Source: Shigella phage Ag3. Taken from it: 64,000 bases of DNA. Shown piece after piece: positions 4,403-64,000 of the stretch. A model generated the notes under the pieces. The model worked only from the letters and a program-made list of their open reading frames with translations. It was not told the origin of the DNA and did no database searches. Numbering within the stretch: the first letter of the stretch is position 1; each line of letters opens with the position of its first letter. The DNA is taken from sequence record FJ373894; one strand, written 5' to 3'. The position numbers and the translations under genes are program-made.

Positions 4403-4708
4403 ATGTTAACCACTGATGTCTACTTCAAATATGCCCAGCAAGCATATGGACCACACCGCCGGATAACGAAGTTCCTGATTGACTCTTTCCAATTCGAAGG
4501 AGAGACCAGGGAATACTCCCACAAACAATTCCCTCCCCGTGAAGTGCATGGCGACCAGTTCGTGAAGTTGTTCTGTCGCTGTGGTGGTTGTGACTTCACA
4601 GATGATGGGTATGCAATGCACGTATACTGCTGCAATTGCTGTGGTAAATACATAACAGTCTATAGGAGAACCAATCATGGCGAAGAAACCCGAAACCAAG
4701 AAAGTTGA
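4403..4708 (+). CDS. hypothetical Cys-rich protein
   Basis: 101-aa ORF with GAGG 5 nt upstream of ATG; Cys cluster CRCGGCDF...CCNCCGKY; overlaps next ORF by 32 nt, so uncertain. Confidence 0.3.
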   Translation: MLTTDVYFKYAQQAYGPHRRITKFLIDSFQFEGETREYSHKQFPPREVHGDQFVKLFCRCGGCDFTDDGYAMHVYCCNCCGKYITVYRRTNHGEETRNQES

Positions 4709-5102
4709 AACCGCAACTACAGCCCCCGTTGATGACATCCAGGCGAAGGAGGAAGGTGTGTTACCTACCTACCTGCAACGCGCTGTAGACAACATGCCTA
4801 CAGGCGGGGATGGAGGCGTCGTCTACGCTGGCGGGTACGGTTGGGTGTGCGAATACCAAGACGGCACCAAAGAACTCCTCCAGGAGCTTCCAGGGCTGGC
4901 GTCCACGCTGAAGCGTTATGGTCGCGACAAGTATGGCAAGCCGTTTGAGAAGGGCGCTGTCATCTCCACCAACATTACAGCAGATACTCTGAACCTTCTG
5001 GGTGTGGACGACCTGAAGCTGCTGGCTGAACCTTTGGGTATCACAGTAGAAGATCGCATTACGTTGATTGCTCAACTGATCGAAAAATTGCAGATTAAAT
5101 AA
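4677..5102 (+). CDS. hypothetical protein
   Basis: 141-aa ORF, AGGAG 8 nt upstream of ATG; no recognisable motif. Confidence 0.45.
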   Translation: MAKKPETKKVETATTAPVDDIQAKEEGVLPTYLQRAVDNMPTGGDGGVVYAGGYGWVCEYQDGTKELLQELPGLASTLKRYGRDKYGKPFEKGAVISTNITADTLNLLGVDDLKLLAEPLGITVEDRITLIAQLIEKLQIK

Positions 5103-5131: not shown

Positions 5132-5524
5132 ATGGTTATCGTTGACGAAAGCAATCTGATAGAGTATGCCCTGAGGCATTACATTGTTGATTCTATCTCA
5201 CGGGATGAGTTGCTGACAGACATACAGCGAATTTCGCTAATTAACCAATCATTGAAGAGATTTGTGCCTGGCAAGAGTCCAAGGCTCATATTGAATCAGC
5301 TGATCACTCTCTTCAATACGTTCGAAGCAGAAGCAGTCTGTCGTATGCTTGTGTTGAAAACGGATAAGTCTCAGCTTCCGCGCCTCAAGGCTGCTTTGTT
5401 GACGTTAGGCGTATGGCGTGATGATTTATGTTCCGGTTCATACGAACCAGATAACGAGCTATTAATGGCTCTGAACAACGATTTGGGCGAGTGGAGGAAA
5501 CCATGCCAACAATCACTGTATTAG
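5132..5524 (+). CDS. hypothetical protein
   Basis: 130-aa ORF; weak RBS; no recognisable motif. Confidence 0.4.
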   Translation: MVIVDESNLIEYALRHYIVDSISRDELLTDIQRISLINQSLKRFVPGKSPRLILNQLITLFNTFEAEAVCRMLVLKTDKSQLPRLKAALLTLGVWRDDLCSGSYEPDNELLMALNNDLGEWRKPCQQSLY

Positions 5525-6312
5525 TAGCACCGGAAGTTGTTCGCAACAAACCGGAAACCGAGCGTCTGCACACCGTGACAGGCACTGCCAAGGGTTGGGA
5601 AAAGACCAGTCTTAACCAAGACCCTGACGAGATCCTGACCGAGTGTAAAGGCCTGGATGCACTTCTGACCAAGAGCAATCTTCAGGCTGATGGCGTGACC
5701 AAAGTTGATCCAACCAAGCCTATCGGCTTCGAGATCTCTTACGAAATCCACGACCCAAGCGCCGTGCTGACCACTGGCCTGACCATCACCCCTGCGACTG
5801 CTGGTGGTGAAGTCGGTCAGGTTGTTGAACTGCTGGCGACCGTCGCTCCGGCGAACGCGACCTACCAGGGTGTCAACTGGTACTCTGGTGACATCACCAA
5901 AGCTGTACACATCGGCGGTGGTAAATTCAAGCTGCTGGCTCCTGGTTCTGTGACTGTGTACGGTGTTACCATCGAAGGTGGTCACACTGACTCTACCGTC
6001 ATCACAGTGGCGGGTGCGCTGGCTCTGTCTACTGATCTGGCCGCTTCTCAGGATGTGACAGCAGGTGCTGACGCAACCTTCACCATCGCCGCTACAGGCG
6101 GCACTACCCCATACACATATGCTTGGTACTTCTCTGATGTCCCTGGCGGTGAAGGTGTGGTGATCGATGCTGGCGCTAACGCCACTGCTGCTACAGCAAG
6201 CCTGGTTATCACTGCCGTTGATGCCGCCGACGAGGGTGAGTACTGGTGCGTTGTTGAAGACGCCGACGGCCACTCTGTGACCTCCACCCGTTGTGAAATG
6301 GCTGTGGTCTAA
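5503..6312 (+). CDS. Ig-like domain protein (Big_2-like plus second Ig-like domain); possible virion decoration protein
   Basis: 269 aa from ATG 5503 (GGAGGAAA upstream); Big_2-like segment VVELLATVAPANATYQGVNWYSGD...TVITV; second Ig-like segment with TYAWYF and DEGEYWCVVED, as in phage Hoc-type proteins. Confidence 0.5.
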   Translation: MPTITVLVAPEVVRNKPETERLHTVTGTAKGWEKTSLNQDPDEILTECKGLDALLTKSNLQADGVTKVDPTKPIGFEISYEIHDPSAVLTTGLTITPATAGGEVGQVVELLATVAPANATYQGVNWYSGDITKAVHIGGGKFKLLAPGSVTVYGVTIEGGHTDSTVITVAGALALSTDLAASQDVTAGADATFTIAATGGTTPYTYAWYFSDVPGGEGVVIDAGANATAATASLVITAVDAADEGEYWCVVEDADGHSVTSTRCEMAVV

Positions 6313-6314
6313 TC

Positions 6315-6545
6315 ATGAAGGGCTTCCAGGACTTTCTTGAAGACTCGGCAGCCCCTGGCACCACTACCACCGATGTGGGGAAACCCGAAGGTGGTATGGT
6401 GAAAGAGCCTGTCAAGAAGCCCAAGGATCTTGAGGAAGAACAAGAGCAGACCCCCTTCCAAAAGATCTTTGGAAACATCTTCAAAGACCTGGATCTGAAG
6501 AATGCGCGAAAGTGGAACTTCAGGACAGGCAAATATGAAGACTAA
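6315..6545 (+). CDS. small protein with capsid-targeting-sequence-like N-terminus (candidate internal head protein)
   Basis: 76 aa; N-terminus MKGFQDFLEDS resembles T4 internal-protein CTS (MKTYQEFIAE, recalled); same N-terminal motif in ORFs 60863..61102 and 61112..61681. Confidence 0.4.
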   Translation: MKGFQDFLEDSAAPGTTTTDVGKPEGGMVKEPVKKPKDLEEEQEQTPFQKIFGNIFKDLDLKNARKWNFRTGKYED

Positions 6546-6546
6546 A

Positions 6547-6568
6547 AGAGGCTCCGGCCTCTTTTTCA
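6547..6568 (+). terminator. intrinsic terminator
   Basis: AGAGGC-TCCG-GCCTCT hairpin followed by TTTTTCATTT, starting 2 nt after the stop at 6545. Confidence 0.65.
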
Positions 6569-6633
6569 TTTCCAGCATTCGGTGTATAATGGACCCGTTC
6601 CCCATGAGCGGAACCTAACTGAGGATACACCAA

Positions 6634-60458: not shown

Positions 60459-60866
60459 TTACGACAGCTGCTTCAGTTTGTAGATCGTCTGATAGCACAG
60501 CGTCTTGATTTCATCAAGCGTGTTCTGAAGGTGGGAGTCGCACTGCCTGTAGATGCCATCGACGTCTATCACCACGCTGTTGACATAGGAGATAGGGTCT
60601 GGGTTGTACAATTTGATGTTCTCAAACGACGGAACGTACTGGCCACCCGCACCGATGTATGCTTCGGTAAACGTGTCCAGCAAGTCCTCCAGTTCCCCGT
60701 AGAACTCCCCGAGTGCTTTGTGCTTGGCATAGGACGTTGTAACGAAGTGTAAGGCATGAGAGTGGGCTATAGCAAGCAGTCCACGGTTGATGAAAATACT
60801 CGCGTTAACCATGATTTGTTTCCTCAGAAAAAGAAATCCCCCTGTATTTAGGGGGATTGTAATCAC
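60459..60866 (-). CDS. hypothetical protein
   Basis: 135 aa from GTG 60866 (GTGA overlap) or 117 aa from ATG 60812. Confidence 0.4.
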   Translation of the reverse strand: MITIPLNTGGFLFLRKQIMVNASIFINRGLLAIAHSHALHFVTTSYAKHKALGEFYGELEDLLDTFTEAYIGAGGQYVPSFENIKLYNPDPISYVNSVVIDVDGIYRQCDSHLQNTLDEIKTLCYQTIYKLKQLS

Positions 60867-61102
60867 GGCTTGACCAGAGTCATCTTGACGGTTTCACCCG
60901 TGTCGGTGTCTGTCAGGGTCATGACGTCTTGCGCATTCACAGACTTCACTTTCCCTTGTCGTTTGTCGCCGTTGCGGTTGTAGTAGTCGATCAGCTCGCC
61001 TTTAGTTGGGCGACCAACATCAGTGATGTCATACTGTCCACGCTTACCCAGAGCACGATGGTCAACTTTCGCCTCTGCCAGGAAGTCTTTAAACCCTTTC
61101 AT
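60863..61102 (-). CDS. small protein with capsid-targeting-sequence-like N-terminus (candidate internal head protein)
   Basis: 79 aa; N-terminus MKGFKDFLAEAK resembles T4 internal protein CTS (MKTYQEFIAEA, recalled) including an L-A-E potential prohead-protease site. Confidence 0.45.
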   Translation of the reverse strand: MKGFKDFLAEAKVDHRALGKRGQYDITDVGRPTKGELIDYYNRNGDKRQGKVKSVNAQDVMTLTDTDTGETVKMTLVKP

Positions 61103-61111
61103 ACAACCTCC

Positions 61112-61681
61112 TTAGACAGGCTTGACGCCGAGGAACTTGGCGATATCAGCAGCCAGGTTTTTACCCTTGCTGATGTCCTGTTCCTTGCCATTGCATGTGA
61201 CGATCACATACGGGTCGTCTTCGCCGCCGAAGTTCACGGTGATCGCCTTGCCGATGCCAGGGATGCCAGAGTATTCGAACTCAGTGCGACCACTTTTGCG
61301 GGACTTGCCAACACCCAGTGCTTTGCCGATCATCTTGTCCATGTTCGCCAGTTCCTGAGCATAGGCTTCGGTCACCTGACCTTTGTCAGCAGACTTGCCA
61401 AAGAAGAATTCGAAACCGTCATGGACAGCAACGACTTCCTGACCTTGGGAGATACCGTGAGTCTGGTCTGGGGTCAGCTTCACCTTGATGGTATTGCCGT
61501 TGGTTAACTCCAGGTTGTAGACATCCGCCTGATTGTCAGGGGTAATCTGGGTCACGGTAGCACCTGAGCACCACTGAGTGCCGTCAGCTTGCTTGGTGAT
61601 GGATACGCTTTTGCCCTGGACACCAGCATGGGTCTGAGGCTGAGCAGCTTGTTCTTTAAAGTATTGAAGGAACGGTTTCAT
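61112..61681 (-). CDS. protein with capsid-targeting-sequence-like N-terminus (candidate internal head protein)
   Basis: 189 aa; N-terminus MKPFLQYFKEQAAQ; size similar to T4 IPIII. Confidence 0.4.
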   Translation of the reverse strand: MKPFLQYFKEQAAQPQTHAGVQGKSVSITKQADGTQWCSGATVTQITPDNQADVYNLELTNGNTIKVKLTPDQTHGISQGQEVVAVHDGFEFFFGKSADKGQVTEAYAQELANMDKMIGKALGVGKSRKSGRTEFEYSGIPGIGKAITVNFGGEDDPYVIVTCNGKEQDISKGKNLAADIAKFLGVKPV

Positions 61682-61738
61682 CTTGAATCTCCTCGGGGAT
61701 TTCAGTTATTTATAAGCCCCCGAAGGGGCTTTAGATGA

Positions 61739-63595
61739 TCAGATTTTAATCTGCATGTTGCCGCCCAGGGACTGCTCATACTCACTGTATGCGCTCTCCC
61801 CGTCGTCTTTCGCCCACTGGTCAGACTGCTGGGCGCGAGCCAGAGTCATCAGGTTTGGTTCAGTCGGGTTGTAACCCTTGGATTTCGCATCCTGGTACAG
61901 AGTCTGCAGGTACTGGTTGGCGCGGTCAATCTGAGCTTTGAACTCGCGATATGCACCTTCAGTTGTATTGCGGCGGAAGGTGATATCCCAGTCCACGTTC
62001 AGAGTCTGACCATCACGGCTTGCATAGATCTGCCAATCCAGGTCGCGACCTTTTGGAGCGTTGTCGCGGATGGAACCAGCGTATGTTGCAAGGTCAACAC
62101 CAGTCTTCTTAGCAGTATCCGGTTCTTTATCCAGGCGTTCTGTTTCTTTGGACAGGATACCCAACATAAATTCATTGGTGCGGCGATCCGCCATGTCGTG
62201 CCCGCGCCAAAGGACTGAACCGTTGTTGTCAACAAAAATGTCGTCCAAAAATACTTGTTTCGGATTATGTGACGTGCTGTTCAGAGTTTGCATATTCCGA
62301 GATATCATTTCCATTTTAGAAGAAATTTCATCGATCACGGCCTGAACAATATCTTTCTTCAAAGGAAGTTCATATGTCTTCGGATTGTTCAACAGTCGCC
62401 CTTTCTGAGAGATCATCGGCGTGAACGCGACTTTTCCTTTGTCGTAGTAATAGGTCACATTCGTGGTCAATACAGCACCATCATACTTCCCAGTTTTCGG
62501 GAAATTGACACCAGACCAAGTGATGGACATACCGTTGACAGTCTCACCAAACACCATGGCGTTGCGCGGCATCTTCAGGGTTCCAGAGTTGACCAGATCA
62601 GCGCCCTGGGCATTCAGGTCGATAGAACCATAGATGGTCCCGCTACGATCTTTCAGCATCAGGGTCTTGTCGCCCTTCTCTGGGATGATTTCCAGCAGGT
62701 GCTTGCCGCGCAGAGGCTCTTTGTTGAGTTCCAACAGAGCAGTGTTCCCTGGTTTCACACGATTCAGGACAGCGTCGGTCACTTTCAGAGTCCAGTTTGC
62801 GGTCTCAACATAACCCCAACCCTGAGAATGGCGAATACCCTTGATAGGGTAAGGGGCGCTCATCGGCACTGCGCTAATTTCCCATTCGCCGCGATACTGA
62901 TGTTCGGCCACGTATGTGATCGTTTCCATGATTTCGTTTGCCACCCGACGAGCATCGCCAGAGATGACACCAGGCTGAGTTTCGATTTCAGAGAACACGT
63001 TGTAGGTCAGATTCTTGCCATCGACTGAATCGAAGCTGACGATGATCACCAGACCACCTTTAGTTTGATAACGCGCCTGTCCGATCTTCTTAATGCTTTC
63101 CCCTGGGAGATAGCTTGCTTTCTGGTCAATGTTGGTATCAATGATACCCAGAACACGAGCGATGAAACCGCTGTCACGCAATTGATCGATACTGGTTGCC
63201 CCGATTGTGGTGTTGGAGTCAGCTGGCGCGGACTTCTGCTGAGAACCTTTCCAAAATTTTGTGGACGCCGTGGTGAAATCATTCAGGATACTGATAGGGA
63301 CTTGCGGTAATTTCAACTGACGAGCAATGAAATCAGCACTTTGCCCACGCACAGATTTCTCATTCATGTATGCGCCAACATACACGCCTGGCTCATTGTA
63401 GTGGGGAGCGATATTTGCCGTGTTCATGCGGCCTCTCTCCTTACCAACCCATATCAACATGGGTTGATCCCCGTTTGAAGTTAATTTCCATCCGTTGGAA
63501 TCATCAACAGAAGATGAAGCCCCCACATCTGGGGTATTGTCCTGAACCGGAACGTCGCCGACCTTGTCCGGGTCATCCCATGTGATGCCCTGCAT
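61739..63595 (-). CDS. large hypothetical protein
   Basis: About 618 aa from ATG 63595 (or GTG 63658, 639 aa); no catalytic motif recognised. Confidence 0.45.
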   Translation of the reverse strand: MQGITWDDPDKVGDVPVQDNTPDVGASSSVDDSNGWKLTSNGDQPMLIWVGKERGRMNTANIAPHYNEPGVYVGAYMNEKSVRGQSADFIARQLKLPQVPISILNDFTTASTKFWKGSQQKSAPADSNTTIGATSIDQLRDSGFIARVLGIIDTNIDQKASYLPGESIKKIGQARYQTKGGLVIIVSFDSVDGKNLTYNVFSEIETQPGVISGDARRVANEIMETITYVAEHQYRGEWEISAVPMSAPYPIKGIRHSQGWGYVETANWTLKVTDAVLNRVKPGNTALLELNKEPLRGKHLLEIIPEKGDKTLMLKDRSGTIYGSIDLNAQGADLVNSGTLKMPRNAMVFGETVNGMSITWSGVNFPKTGKYDGAVLTTNVTYYYDKGKVAFTPMISQKGRLLNNPKTYELPLKKDIVQAVIDEISSKMEMISRNMQTLNSTSHNPKQVFLDDIFVDNNGSVLWRGHDMADRRTNEFMLGILSKETERLDKEPDTAKKTGVDLATYAGSIRDNAPKGRDLDWQIYASRDGQTLNVDWDITFRRNTTEGAYREFKAQIDRANQYLQTLYQDAKSKGYNPTEPNLMTLARAQQSDQWAKDDGESAYSEYEQSLGGNMQIKI

Positions 63596-63626
63596 CTTCG
63601 GACCGTCGAATACCTGAGCAGGATCT

Positions 63627-64000
63627 TTACCCTTGCGAACCAGCCATACATAAACCACGGTCAGGGACAGGCGCGTAGGTCAGGTCCATGACGTTCAGCT
63701 TCTGCTTCAGGCCGGACTGGCGGATGATCTTAGGAATCAGGGTCATCCCGCGTTCCAGCGCTTTCTTAGAGAAGTTGACAGCATAACCATCGATGGTCTT
63801 GCCCAGAGGGGTCGCCAGGAACTGCTTGGTCGCTTCGATCATGGAAGCAATGACGCGCATTGGGTTCTTGAAGCGAGCGATAGCATCAGGATAGACGGAG
63901 CCGCGCTTCTGGCCGATGAAGACCTGACGAACGTTCTTGCCCAGCCCCTGAGGGGTATAGAACTGAATGCGGTATTCCTTTTCATCTTCGTCGATGAAGG
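63627..64000 (-). CDS. hypothetical protein, 5' part outside window
   Basis: Open reading frame continues in-frame to the window end; C-terminal 124 codons visible; ends at TAA 63627. Confidence 0.4.
   Translation of the reverse strand, partial: FIDEDEKEYRIQFYTPQGLGKNVRQVFIGQKRGSVYPDAIARFKNPMRVIASMIEATKQFLATPLGKTIDGYAVNFSKKALERGMTLIPKIIRQSGLKQKLNVMDLTYAPVPDRGLCMAGSQG

What the first reader, a model, noticed from the sequence alone, without database searches (positions are those of the whole stretch)
6315..6545. Third CTS-like small protein immediately downstream of the Ig-like (Hoc-like) gene
ORF 6315..6545 (76 aa) begins MKGFQDFLEDS, the same N-terminal motif as the two genes at 60.9-61.7 kb but at a distant locus, followed by a strong terminator. 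The remainder is Lys/Glu-rich and unlike the other two, suggesting a shared packaging signal on different cargo.
Basis: partly seen in the sequence, partly recalled or inferred. Interest (0 to 1): 0.55.

Follow-up and report, generated by a model that had tools for sequence, protein, structure and literature searches.

The report
Small capsid-targeting-like phage protein
A conserved 76-residue gene of Shigella phage AG3 starts with a tag like the one phage T4 uses to load proteins into its head, then copies the capsid protein's own cutting site, so it is more likely a short-lived head-assembly helper than delivered cargo.

Summary
The ORF is real. It is orf008 of Shigella phage PhiSboM-AG3 (Ackermannviridae): 76 aa, dN/dS about 0.03, found in at least 278 phage genomes. 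It always sits directly behind the Ig-like virion protein gene, with a 2-nt or overlapping stop/start, and a conserved terminator follows.

Its first ten residues, MKGFQDFLED, are far closer to the 79-aa gene at 60.9 kb (MKGFKDFLAE) than chance allows. The match to the 189-aa gene is only weak. Both resemble the T4 capsid targeting sequence MKTYQEFIAE, and the family has T4-type protease, scaffold and capsid genes.

First, residues 8-24 copy the major capsid protein's own maturation junction (LGE|SDAPGSVNNSVGKW). This is the most conserved part of the family. Second, orthologues of the 189-aa and 79-aa proteins were found in purified virions, but orthologues of this protein were not found in three virion proteomes.

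My best reading (confidence 0.42) is that the protein is drawn into the prohead, cut by the prohead protease after Glu9, and then lost or kept in few copies. That makes it a transient maturation factor, not a delivered cargo. Nothing about targeting or cleavage has been shown experimentally. Interest is moderate.

The parts
6315..6545 (+). orf008: 76-aa, 8.7-kDa protein of PHROG 4805, the object of the finding
   Evidence: ORF listing and sequence. AG3 Table S1 gives the same coordinates. PHROG 4805 match at E = 1e-46. 278 phage records hold a homologue. dN/dS is 0.03 against LIMEstone1 and Sajous1.
6315..6341 (+). Residues 1-9, MKGFQDFLE: CTS-like amphipathic N-terminal motif, M-K-x-F-x-[DE]-[FY]-L-E
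   Evidence: Top-ranked similarity to the 79-aa virion protein and to the T4 CTS. A PSSM built from three other virion-protein families ranks it first among non-training starts in the window, score 16.1, about 5 sd above the mean. AlphaFold2 places its only N-terminal helix at residues 4-9. Five codons in the first 30 nt differ synonymously from the 79-aa gene, so the peptide is conserved rather than the DNA.
6336..6386 (+). Residues 8-24, LEDSAAPGTTTTDVGKP: mimic of the capsid protein's maturation junction (LGE|SDAPGSVNNSVGKW). The protease cut is predicted after Glu9.
   Evidence: This is the most conserved segment of the family: mean top-residue frequency 0.94 for residues 11-29. BLASTP places it on capsid protein residues 49-64, E = 0.027. 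In an ungapped scan against all 1157 six-frame ORFs of SKML-39, the junction is the top hit for 5 of 6 family members, and 3 of them beat all 200 shuffles. A core HMM gives the junction as top non-self hit, E = 0.029.
6387..6542 (+). Residues 25-76: Pro/Lys/Glu-rich disordered linker and a C-terminal FxKIFGNIFKDL...WNFRTGKY segment. This segment is variable, and is absent in the Serratia phage 2050H1 homologue and metagenomic P0039.
   Evidence: Alignments. The 45-46-aa homologues lack it. AlphaFold2 gives pLDDT 52-78 and pTM 0.20.
6310..6317 (+). Stop/start junction TAATCATG between the Ig-like gene and orf008. There is no Shine-Dalgarno sequence, so translation is probably coupled.
   Evidence: Sequence. 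The arrangement is conserved: TAATTTATG in Sajous1, TAATCTATG in Vi01, overlapping GTGATGA in 2050H1. In metagenomic relatives the gene ends abut.
6544..6571 (+). Intrinsic terminator: AAAAGAGGC-TCCG-GCCTCTTTT followed by TCATTT
   Evidence: Fold at -15.6 kcal/mol. Conserved in other genera. Not listed in the published AG3 terminator table.
5503..6312 (+). Ig-like (Hoc-like) virion protein gene orf006, upstream partner in the same transcription unit
   Evidence: Pfam Ig_3 and Big_2, PHROG 215 'structural protein with Ig domain'. It is one of the six strongest bands of AG3 virions, with N-terminal peptides 2-14 and 35-49 observed. Found in LIMEstone1 virions and in Sajous1 virions, 43 spectra.
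4645..4650 (+). TAAATA, a weak late-promoter-like element 26 nt before the first gene of the block (4677)
   Evidence: Annotated as a putative late promoter in LIMEstone1. Sequence GGTAAATA. The motif is not enriched in the window overall. The assignment is inferred only.
60863..61102 (-). orf105, the 79-aa protein beginning MKGFKDFLAE|A: closest N-terminal relative of the target
   Evidence: The orthologue Sajous1 gp216 was found in CsCl-purified virions, 20 spectra.
61112..61681 (-). orf107, the 189-aa protein beginning MKPFLQYFKE|Q
   Evidence: Orthologues found in virions: Sajous1 gp215 (32 spectra), LIMEstone1 ORF80, Vi01_093c.
61707..61714 (-). TATAAATA, a T4-type late promoter 25 nt upstream of orf107
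   Evidence: One of only two exact matches in the window.

Best explanation
orf008 encodes a small, largely disordered late protein. It is made together with the Ig-like head protein because it is translationally coupled to that gene.

Its first nine residues form the amphipathic F-x-x-F-L-x-E helix that also heads the virion proteins of the 61-64 kb cluster, and that in T4 is the capsid targeting sequence. This helix most probably brings the protein into the scaffolding core of the assembling prohead.

Directly after the helix lies a copy of the major capsid protein's own maturation junction, E|(D)S-x-A-P ... V-G-K. The gp21-type prohead protease therefore most probably cuts the protein after Glu9, on the same schedule as the capsid protein.

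The released peptide of about 7.5 kDa is not seen in finished virions. It is probably degraded further, expelled, or kept in very few copies. That makes it a transient prohead or maturation factor rather than a protein delivered to the host.

Shown here: the gene is real and under strong constraint; the motif similarities; the gene context; the presence of T4-type head machinery in the family; and the absence of orthologues from published virion protein lists. Inferred: targeting, cleavage, and the fate of the peptide.
For: The gene is real and constrained: dN/dS 0.03, with 13 synonymous against 2 non-synonymous differences versus LIMEstone1.

The N-terminal motif scores 35 against the 79-aa virion protein, where the background has mean -10 and sd 6.7. 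It is among the top hits when the independent T4 CTS is the probe. T4 IPII and IPIII begin MKTYQEFIAEA.

The same motif heads the most abundant non-shell virion protein: Sajous1 gp214, MAIPSFLNFLEE, 196 spectra. It also heads the MAM1 and Ea2809 orthologues.

A PSSM built from those families, leaving out the target, ranks the target first among non-training starts in the window.

Peptidase_S77 protease, T4_CASP scaffold, Gp23 capsid protein and gp67/gp68-like core proteins are present in the relative SKML-39.

The capsid-junction mimic is supported by BLASTP (E = 0.027 and 0.049), by the ungapped whole-proteome scan (top hit for 5 of 6 members, 3 above all 200 shuffles), and by the core HMM (E = 0.029).

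AG3 virion mass spectrometry covers 64% of the capsid protein but shows no peptide N-terminal of residue 65. This fits removal of a propeptide at L-G-E51|S52.

T4's own capsid junction, AFGSFLTE|AEIGG, likewise resembles T4's CTS end, YQEFIAE|A.

Orthologues are missing from the virion lists of LIMEstone1 and Sajous1 and from the Vi01 particle-associated annotation.

The rIIA-rIIB-DUF7440-DUF7207-Ig-like-orf008 synteny, with abutting stop and start, holds in distant metagenomic relatives.
Against: There is no experimental evidence of prohead targeting or cleavage for this protein, or for any Ackermannviridae CTS-like sequence.

The putative site F-L-E9|D has Phe at P3, not the Leu or Ile of the T4 rule. 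The Glu is at position 9 rather than 10.

The capsid-junction similarity is short, about 14 residues. For AG3's own sequence alone it is only marginal (shuffle p about 0.10). It does not co-vary with the Serratia capsid junction.

The other genes of the same block (DUF7440, DUF7207) are also absent from virion lists. The whole block apart from the Ig-like protein could therefore be cytoplasmic.

Absence from proteomes is negative evidence. LIMEstone1 also missed the 79-aa orthologue ORF079. The Vi01 result is inferred from annotation wording. The AG3 study analysed only six gel bands, all of 17.7 kDa or more.
Confidence: 0.42

Rival explanations
1. True packaged cargo. The protein is loaded through its CTS-like tag, trimmed, retained inside the mature head in low copy number, and ejected into the host with the DNA.
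For: It has the same N-terminal tag as proteins proven to be in virions. T4 precedent: diverse internal proteins share only the CTS (PMC3012670). Small proteins can be missed; LIMEstone1 missed the 79-aa orthologue.
Against: Sajous1 in-solution LC-MS/MS listed proteins down to one spectrum, including obvious contaminants. It found the 79-aa protein 20 times but not gp82, although gp82 offers good tryptic peptides such as DLEEESGFK and IFGNIFK. The protein is not basic, pI 5.2. It has no folded cargo domain, pTM 0.20. The C-terminal half is dispensable in Serratia phages.
Confidence: 0.2
2. Cytoplasmic accessory of the Ig-like decoration protein, such as a chaperone, placeholder or assembly factor. 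It is made in fixed ratio with its partner through translational coupling. The N-terminal resemblance reflects shared ancestry with the 79-aa gene, not a working packaging signal.
For: The gene is invariably adjacent to the Ig-like gene with a coupled start, across genera and metagenomes. It is absent from virions. [quoted passage not shown] A peptide imitating the mature capsid N-terminus could occupy a capsid-binding site on the decoration protein.
Against: The N-terminal nonapeptide is held at the amino-acid level while the DNA has diverged synonymously. It remains conserved even in 45-60-aa distant homologues. That argues the motif itself is functional. The copied junction includes the P1 Glu and the P2 position of a protease site, not only the mature N-terminus.
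Confidence: 0.2
3. Pseudo-substrate, competitor or timer of the prohead protease, a functional analogue of T4 Inh. It enters the prohead through the tag and modulates when the capsid protein is cleaved by presenting the same junction.
For: The capsid-junction copy is the most conserved part of the family. In T4 the protease inhibitor gene inh lies next to hoc.
Against: There is no sequence similarity to T4 Inh; best BLASTP E = 1.6. T4 inh lies upstream of hoc rather than downstream, and encodes 226 aa. There are no functional data. The other tagged proteins are presumably cleaved without such a junction.
Confidence: 0.12
4. Chance ORF or chance motif with no biological meaning.
For: The protein is short and of low complexity. 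The 189-aa match alone is not distinctive.
Against: dN/dS is 0.03. 278 genomes hold it. The PHROG match is E = 1e-46. The N-terminal match is about 6.7 sd above background.
Confidence: 0.01

Closest known systems
Phage T4 internal proteins IPI, IPII and IPIII with the capsid targeting sequence MKTYQEFIAE|A
   Same: Both have an amphipathic motif of about 10 residues at the extreme N-terminus, M-K-x-[YF]-x-[ED]-F-[IL]-x-E, ending in Glu. Both are small proteins, and several unrelated proteins in one phage share only this tag. Partner machinery of the T4 type (gp21-like protease, gp22-like scaffold) is present. In T4, too, the tag resembles the capsid protein's own cleavage junction.
   Different: The target is not detected in virions. 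It is near-neutral rather than basic. Its Glu is at position 9, with Phe at P3. It carries a copy of the P' side of the capsid junction. It is disordered rather than a folded effector. It is encoded next to the Hoc-like gene rather than in the regB/lysozyme-side internal-protein cluster.
Ackermannviridae virion proteins of the 61-64 kb cluster: AG3 orf105, orf107 and orf109; Sajous1 gp214-216; LIMEstone1 ORF80-81; Vi01_093c and 094c
   Same: They share the N-terminal F-x-x-[FY]-L-x-E motif. orf105 additionally shares TDVG[KR]P. A late promoter and a terminator frame that unit, as a terminator closes the target's unit.
   Different: Those proteins were found in purified virions and the target was not. 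Their locus is hypervariable, with insertions, fusions and losses. The target's locus is invariant.
T4 prohead core proteins gp67 and gp68, and scaffold fragments, which are cleaved by gp21 and largely lost from the head
   Same: They are small, charged, targeted to the core, cleaved, and mostly absent from the mature particle. That is the fate proposed here.
   Different: Separate gp67-like and gp68-like orthologues already exist next to the protease gene (SKML-39 gp017 and gp018). The target has no sequence similarity to them beyond the F-x-D-F-L motif in the gp68-like protein.
T4 Inh, minor head protein and inhibitor of the gp21 protease, encoded next to hoc
   Same: The gene neighbours the hoc(-like) gene. 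A relation to the prohead protease is possible.
   Different: There is no sequence similarity. Inh is 226 aa against 76 aa, and lies upstream of hoc rather than downstream. No inhibitory function has been shown for the target.

Membership tests
T4-type CTS-bearing internal head proteins | A motif of about 10 residues resembling MKTYQEFIAE at the extreme N-terminus | tested here: met
   MKGFQDFLED is identical at 4 of 10 positions and keeps the same aromatic/aliphatic register. With the T4 CTS as probe it ranks 2nd of 2328 candidate starts in the window and 4th of 5623 in SKML-39. T4 sequences were read from the T4 record.
T4-type CTS-bearing internal head proteins | The tag ends in a gp21 cleavage site, (L/I)-x-E| (rule taken from established T4 knowledge) | tested here: inconclusive
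   The sequence is D-F-L-E9|D-S. P1 Glu is invariant, but P3 is Phe. The P' side copies the capsid junction E|SDAPGS, which favours cleavage. No cleavage data exist.
T4-type CTS-bearing internal head proteins | The phage encodes a gp21-family protease and a gp22-family scaffolding core | tested here: met
   Peptidase_S77 at E = 4e-31, T4_CASP at E = 4e-43, Gp23 at E = 5e-124 in the close relative SKML-39. These genes lie outside the window.
T4-type CTS-bearing internal head proteins | The protein is present inside purified heads or virions | tested here: not met
   From published proteomes of orthologues: LIMEstone1 ORF007 is absent; Sajous1 gp82 is absent while gp214-217 are present; Vi01_007 is not labelled 'phage associated'. 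The AG3 study examined only six bands. This is negative evidence only.
T4-type CTS-bearing internal head proteins | The tag is sufficient to package a foreign protein | not testable with these tools
   This needs reporter fusions expressed during infection.
T4-type CTS-bearing internal head proteins | Basic, Lys-rich mature protein associated with DNA (typical rather than strictly defining) | tested here: not met
   pI is 5.2 for the full protein and 5.4-6.2 after tag removal. Mature 79-aa protein has pI 9.35, and mature T4 IPII and IPIII have pI 9.6.
PHROG 4805 (Ackermannviridae orf008 family, function unknown) | Full-length profile match | tested here: met
   E = 1e-46 over residues 1-76. 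36 clusters and 278 phage records hold homologues, all Ackermannviridae-type.
T4 Inh (gp21 protease inhibitor) | Sequence homology to Inh | tested here: not met
   Best BLASTP E = 1.6. No Pfam hit.

The most novel reading that the evidence does not exclude
orf008 is a decoy of the major capsid protein's maturation junction that is delivered into the prohead by a T4-like targeting helix. It would act as a pseudo-substrate or timer for the prohead protease, or as a stand-in for the capsid protein's N-terminal arm that gates binding of the co-translated Ig-like decoration protein. Such a small regulator of capsid maturation has not been described in T4-like phages.
Probability: 0.12. Interest if true: 0.7.

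Novelty: new variant of a known kind. Interest (0 to 1): 0.5.

Why it matters
If the N-terminal helix is a working targeting signal, the T4 mechanism for loading proteins into heads extends to the Ackermannviridae. These phages are widely developed against Salmonella, E. coli O157, Shigella, Klebsiella and Dickeya. A 9-10-residue tag would then be available for packaging enzymes or reporters into them.

Full-text searches for 'capsid targeting sequence' together with Ackermannviridae terms found no paper making this link.

The copy of the capsid protein's cleavage junction in a separate, strongly conserved mini-protein is unusual. It gives a direct way to ask how the prohead protease recognises its substrates and how cleavage is timed.

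If the motif does not function as a signal, the gene remains an ordinary conserved hypothetical protein.

Tried and rejected
1. Pfam gave no hit for the target. PHROGs gave only a family of unknown function.

2. AlphaFold2 with a 17-sequence alignment gave a low-confidence, mostly disordered model (pLDDT 62, pTM 0.20). No fold search was run on it.

3. I tried to get peptide-level evidence of N-terminal processing from the Sajous1 raw table. The stored copy is truncated and holds none of the gp82 or gp214-216 peptides I searched for.

4. I considered that the Ig-like protein is itself cut at ILTE|C, which would explain its 21.9-kDa band against a 27.6-kDa prediction. This is rejected: AG3 peptides 2-14 and 35-49 span the N-terminus and that site.

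5. I considered homology to the T4 genes next to hoc (24.2, 24.3, inh). None is apparent.

6. I tested whether the target's junction mimic co-varies with the capsid junction. It does not: Serratia MAM1 capsid protein has SEGPSS while the Serratia target has SDAPSV.

7. I considered TAAATA at 60845-60850 as a late promoter. It is rejected because it lies in the loop of the published terminator Torf105.

8. The motif CTAAATAcCcc reported for relatives has no exact match in the window; the only two 1-mismatch hits (19022, 25225) are no more than chance expects.

9. A whole-library profile search found 12 proteins at E <= 0.001; the full-length matches are small proteins of the same family, and the only other hit is a 15-residue repeat match in a 1432-aa protein, taken as spurious. 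The two distant homologues whose contigs were checked (P0037, P0034) keep the same synteny.

Full report
**Identity of the window.** The target protein is 100% identical to a hypothetical protein of Shigella phage Ag3. The published PhiSboM-AG3 tables use the same coordinates as the window: orf008 at 6315-6545 (76 aa, 8698 Da, pI 5.1), orf105 at 60863-61102, orf107 at 61112-61681, and promoter Porf009 at 6563-6590. The window is therefore the first 64 kb of this Agtrevirus (Ackermannviridae). The nearest records in the phage collection are Gloob, ChubbyThor, MK-13 and SKML-39.

**The observation.** ORF 6315-6545 (+) begins MKGFQDFLEDS. Its ATG lies two bases after the stop of the Ig-like gene. 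There is no Shine-Dalgarno sequence, whereas orf105 and orf107 have strong ones. A 9-bp hairpin and U-run (6544-6571, dG -15.6 kcal/mol) follow the stop. A sigma-70-type promoter for the next gene comes immediately after.

The stop/start junction, the terminator and the promoter are conserved in Vi01, Sajous1 and Serratia phage 2050H1. Two distant metagenomic relatives keep the order rIIA-rIIB-DUF7440-DUF7207-Ig-like-orf008 with abutting genes.

The gene is under strong purifying selection. Against LIMEstone1 there are 13 synonymous and 2 non-synonymous differences, giving dN/dS 0.03. Against Sajous1 dN is 0.095 with dS saturated. Homologues occur in 278 phage records, all of Ackermannviridae type.

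**Is the shared N-terminus more than chance?** I scored residues 2-10 of the target against every candidate start (ATG, GTG or TTG followed by at least 40 codons). The 79-aa gene scores 35. The background mean is -10 with sd 6.7, and the next best score is 20. This holds in the window (2328 starts) and in the complete SKML-39 genome (5623 starts). BLASTP aligns residues 1-27 with residues 1-35 of the 79-aa protein at E = 6e-5; this alignment includes TDVGKPEGG against TDVGRPTKG.

Its Serratia orthologue reads MKKFSEFLIE, which fits the motif better.

The first 30 coding bases of the target and the 79-aa gene are identical at 21 of 30 positions. Five codons differ synonymously. The peptide is being conserved, not a recently copied piece of DNA.

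**Relation to the T4 capsid targeting sequence.** T4 IPII and IPIII both begin MKTYQEFIAEA in the T4 record. Reviews state that the roughly 10-residue CTS brings otherwise unrelated internal proteins into the scaffolding core, and that the head protease then removes it (PMC7697877; PMC3012670).

I used the T4 decapeptide as an independent probe on all SKML-39 starts. The four best hits are gp022 (MRTFSKFLAER, the gene just after the capsid gene), the 79-aa protein, one spurious internal start, and the target.

The same F-x-x-F-L-x-E motif, offset by two to three residues, heads the large virion protein of the cluster. Examples are Sajous1 gp214 (MAIPSFLNFLEES), SKML-39 gp077, MAM1 gp116 (MNITPFNTFLESS) and Ea2809_068 (MTPSFSGFLAEQ). 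A PSSM built from these three families, without the target, ranks the target first among non-training starts in the window (score 16.1, about 5 sd above the mean) and fourth in SKML-39.

The family has the partner machinery: a Peptidase_S77 (gp21-type) protease, a T4_CASP (gp22-type) scaffold, a Gp23 capsid protein, and gp67-like and gp68-like core proteins.

**Are these proteins in virions?** In CsCl-purified Sajous1, gp214 gave 196 spectra, gp215 (the 189-aa orthologue) 32, gp216 (the 79-aa orthologue) 20, gp217 10, and the Ig-like gp83 43. I confirmed the gene mapping from the Sajous1 record. LIMEstone1 virions contain ORF6 (Hoc-like) and ORF78, 80, 81, 82 and 85. Vi01 labels Vi01_092c, 093c, 094c and 096c as 'phage associated'.

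The target's orthologues are not on these lists. They are Sajous1 gp82, LIMEstone1 ORF007 and Vi01_007; the last is labelled 'putative uncharacterised'. Sajous1 gp82 would give good tryptic peptides, and that list includes single-spectrum contaminants, so a protein present in tens of copies should have been seen.

There are caveats. LIMEstone1 also missed the 79-aa orthologue. The Vi01 inference rests on annotation wording. The AG3 study analysed only six bands.

**A second, unexpected similarity.** The most conserved part of the family is not the tag but residues 11-29, with mean top-residue frequency 0.94 against 0.85 for residues 1-10. BLASTP of the target against the capsid protein puts its best local alignment at LEDSAAPGTTTTDVGK against LGESDAPGSVNNSVGK, capsid residues 49-64, E = 0.027. 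The Serratia homologue hits the same site at E = 0.049.

This site lies just before the Pfam Gp23 domain and contains the only L-x-E motif near it. AG3's own virion mass spectrometry covers 64% of the capsid protein, yet its most N-terminal peptide starts at residue 65. None of five good tryptic peptides from residues 5-64 was observed. This fits removal of a propeptide at E51|S52.

A whole-library profile search recovered more distant family members, P0037 and P0041-43. Their sequence, FLE-SEAPASVDSNVGKP, is even closer to the junction. I ran 16-17-residue segments from six family members, ungapped, against all 1157 six-frame ORFs of SKML-39 (121,981 residues). The capsid junction is the single best hit for five of the six. 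For three of them the score (40-45) exceeds the proteome-wide maximum of all 200 shuffled queries. For AG3's own segment p is about 0.10. A profile of residues 7-26 gives the junction as the top non-self hit at E = 0.029, with the next hit at 0.65.

The similarity does not co-vary with the slightly different Serratia capsid junction. T4 shows a parallel: its capsid junction AFGSFLTE|AEIGG resembles the end of its own CTS, YQEFIAE|A.

**Other properties.** AlphaFold2 gives pLDDT 62 and pTM 0.20. It predicts a helix at residues 4-9, short helices at 47-52 and 61-64, and disorder elsewhere. The protein is near-neutral, with pI 5.2 in full and 5.4-6.2 after tag removal. The mature 79-aa protein and mature T4 IPII and IPIII have pI 9.4-9.7. 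The C-terminal half is missing in the 45-46-aa versions in Serratia phage 2050H1 and metagenomic P0039. The conserved unit is therefore tag, junction copy and a basic/acidic tail.

**Interpretation.** The tag similarity, the protease-junction copy and the T4-type head machinery together make it likely that the protein enters the prohead and is cut after Glu9. Its absence from three virion protein lists, its disorder and its neutral charge argue against a retained, ejected cargo.

I therefore favour a transient prohead or maturation factor (confidence 0.42). The rivals are low-copy cargo (0.20), a cytoplasmic accessory of the co-translated Ig-like protein (0.20) and a protease pseudo-substrate or timer (0.12). 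All of these are inferences. No experiment has addressed targeting or cleavage in this phage family, and full-text searches found no paper linking a capsid targeting sequence to Ackermannviridae.

**Verdict.** The finding is a new variant of a known kind and of moderate interest.

Noticed in passing
window 61739-64000 (minus strand): The gene for the large virion protein (orthologue of Sajous1 gp214, Vi01_094c and SKML-39 gp077) is broken by a frame change near 63,620-63,660. The N-terminal part continues in another frame, as ORF 63627-63860 and beyond the window end. The published AG3 table accordingly lists a shortened orf109 (61739-63460) plus small ORFs. This is either a sequencing error in the deposited genome or a real split.
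   Followed up: partly
window 60863-61681 (minus strand); L004:10946-11428; L011:15937-16857; L018:3647-4204: The locus holding the two tagged genes is hypervariable between close relatives. Gloob gp90 has an 82-aa insertion right after the tag (MKGFQDFLTE-VKQVG...). SKML-39 gp078 is 306 aa rather than 189 aa. Erwinia phage Ea2809 fuses the two proteins. Vi01 and kage lack the 79-aa gene. This looks like cargo swapping behind a constant tag, reminiscent of the polymorphic T-even internal-protein genes.
   Followed up: partly
L010:25589-25909 (SKML-39 gp022, outside the window): The 106-aa gene immediately downstream of the major capsid gene begins MRTFSKFLAER. This is the best match in the whole genome to the T4 CTS. 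No protein attributable to its expected orthologues appears in the LIMEstone1 or Sajous1 virion lists, but that gene mapping was not checked.
   Followed up: no
L010:22161-22466 and L022:10154-10462 (gp68-like prohead core protein, outside the window): The gp68-like core protein carries ATF[AG]DFLA near its N-terminus, the same F-x-D-F-L core as the tag. T4 gp68 has LNEFIVKH. The tag may imitate a core-protein contact motif.
   Followed up: no
window 5491-6312: The real start of the Ig-like protein is ATG 5503, because the virion peptide begins PTITVLV, not the GTG at 5491. It is one of the six strongest virion bands. It ran at 21.9 kDa against a predicted 27.6 kDa, and all six peptides came from the first 49 residues. 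Its N-terminal region weakly resembles DUF7440, the product of the gene at 4677-5102 (E = 2.8e-4).
   Followed up: partly
window 6544-6571 and 61707-61714: Neither the terminator after orf008 nor the exact TATAAATA upstream of orf107 appears in the published AG3 lists of terminators and late promoters.
   Followed up: yes
window 4403-4708: A 101-aa Cys-rich ORF (CRCGGCDF...CCNCCGKY, zinc-ribbon-like) overlaps the start of the DUF7440 gene. It is annotated in LIMEstone1 (ORF003) and Vi01 (Vi01_003) but not in Gloob. SKML-39 annotates an antisense ORF there instead.
   Followed up: no
window 60459-60812 (minus strand): A DUF5856 protein lies next to the tagged genes; Phyre2 modelling of its Sajous1 orthologue suggested a ferritin fold. 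It is a virion component in Vi01, LIMEstone1 and Sajous1 but has no N-terminal tag (it begins MVNASIF...). A published 'ferrojan horse' tail hypothesis rests on it, and an internal head location seems at least as likely.
   Followed up: no
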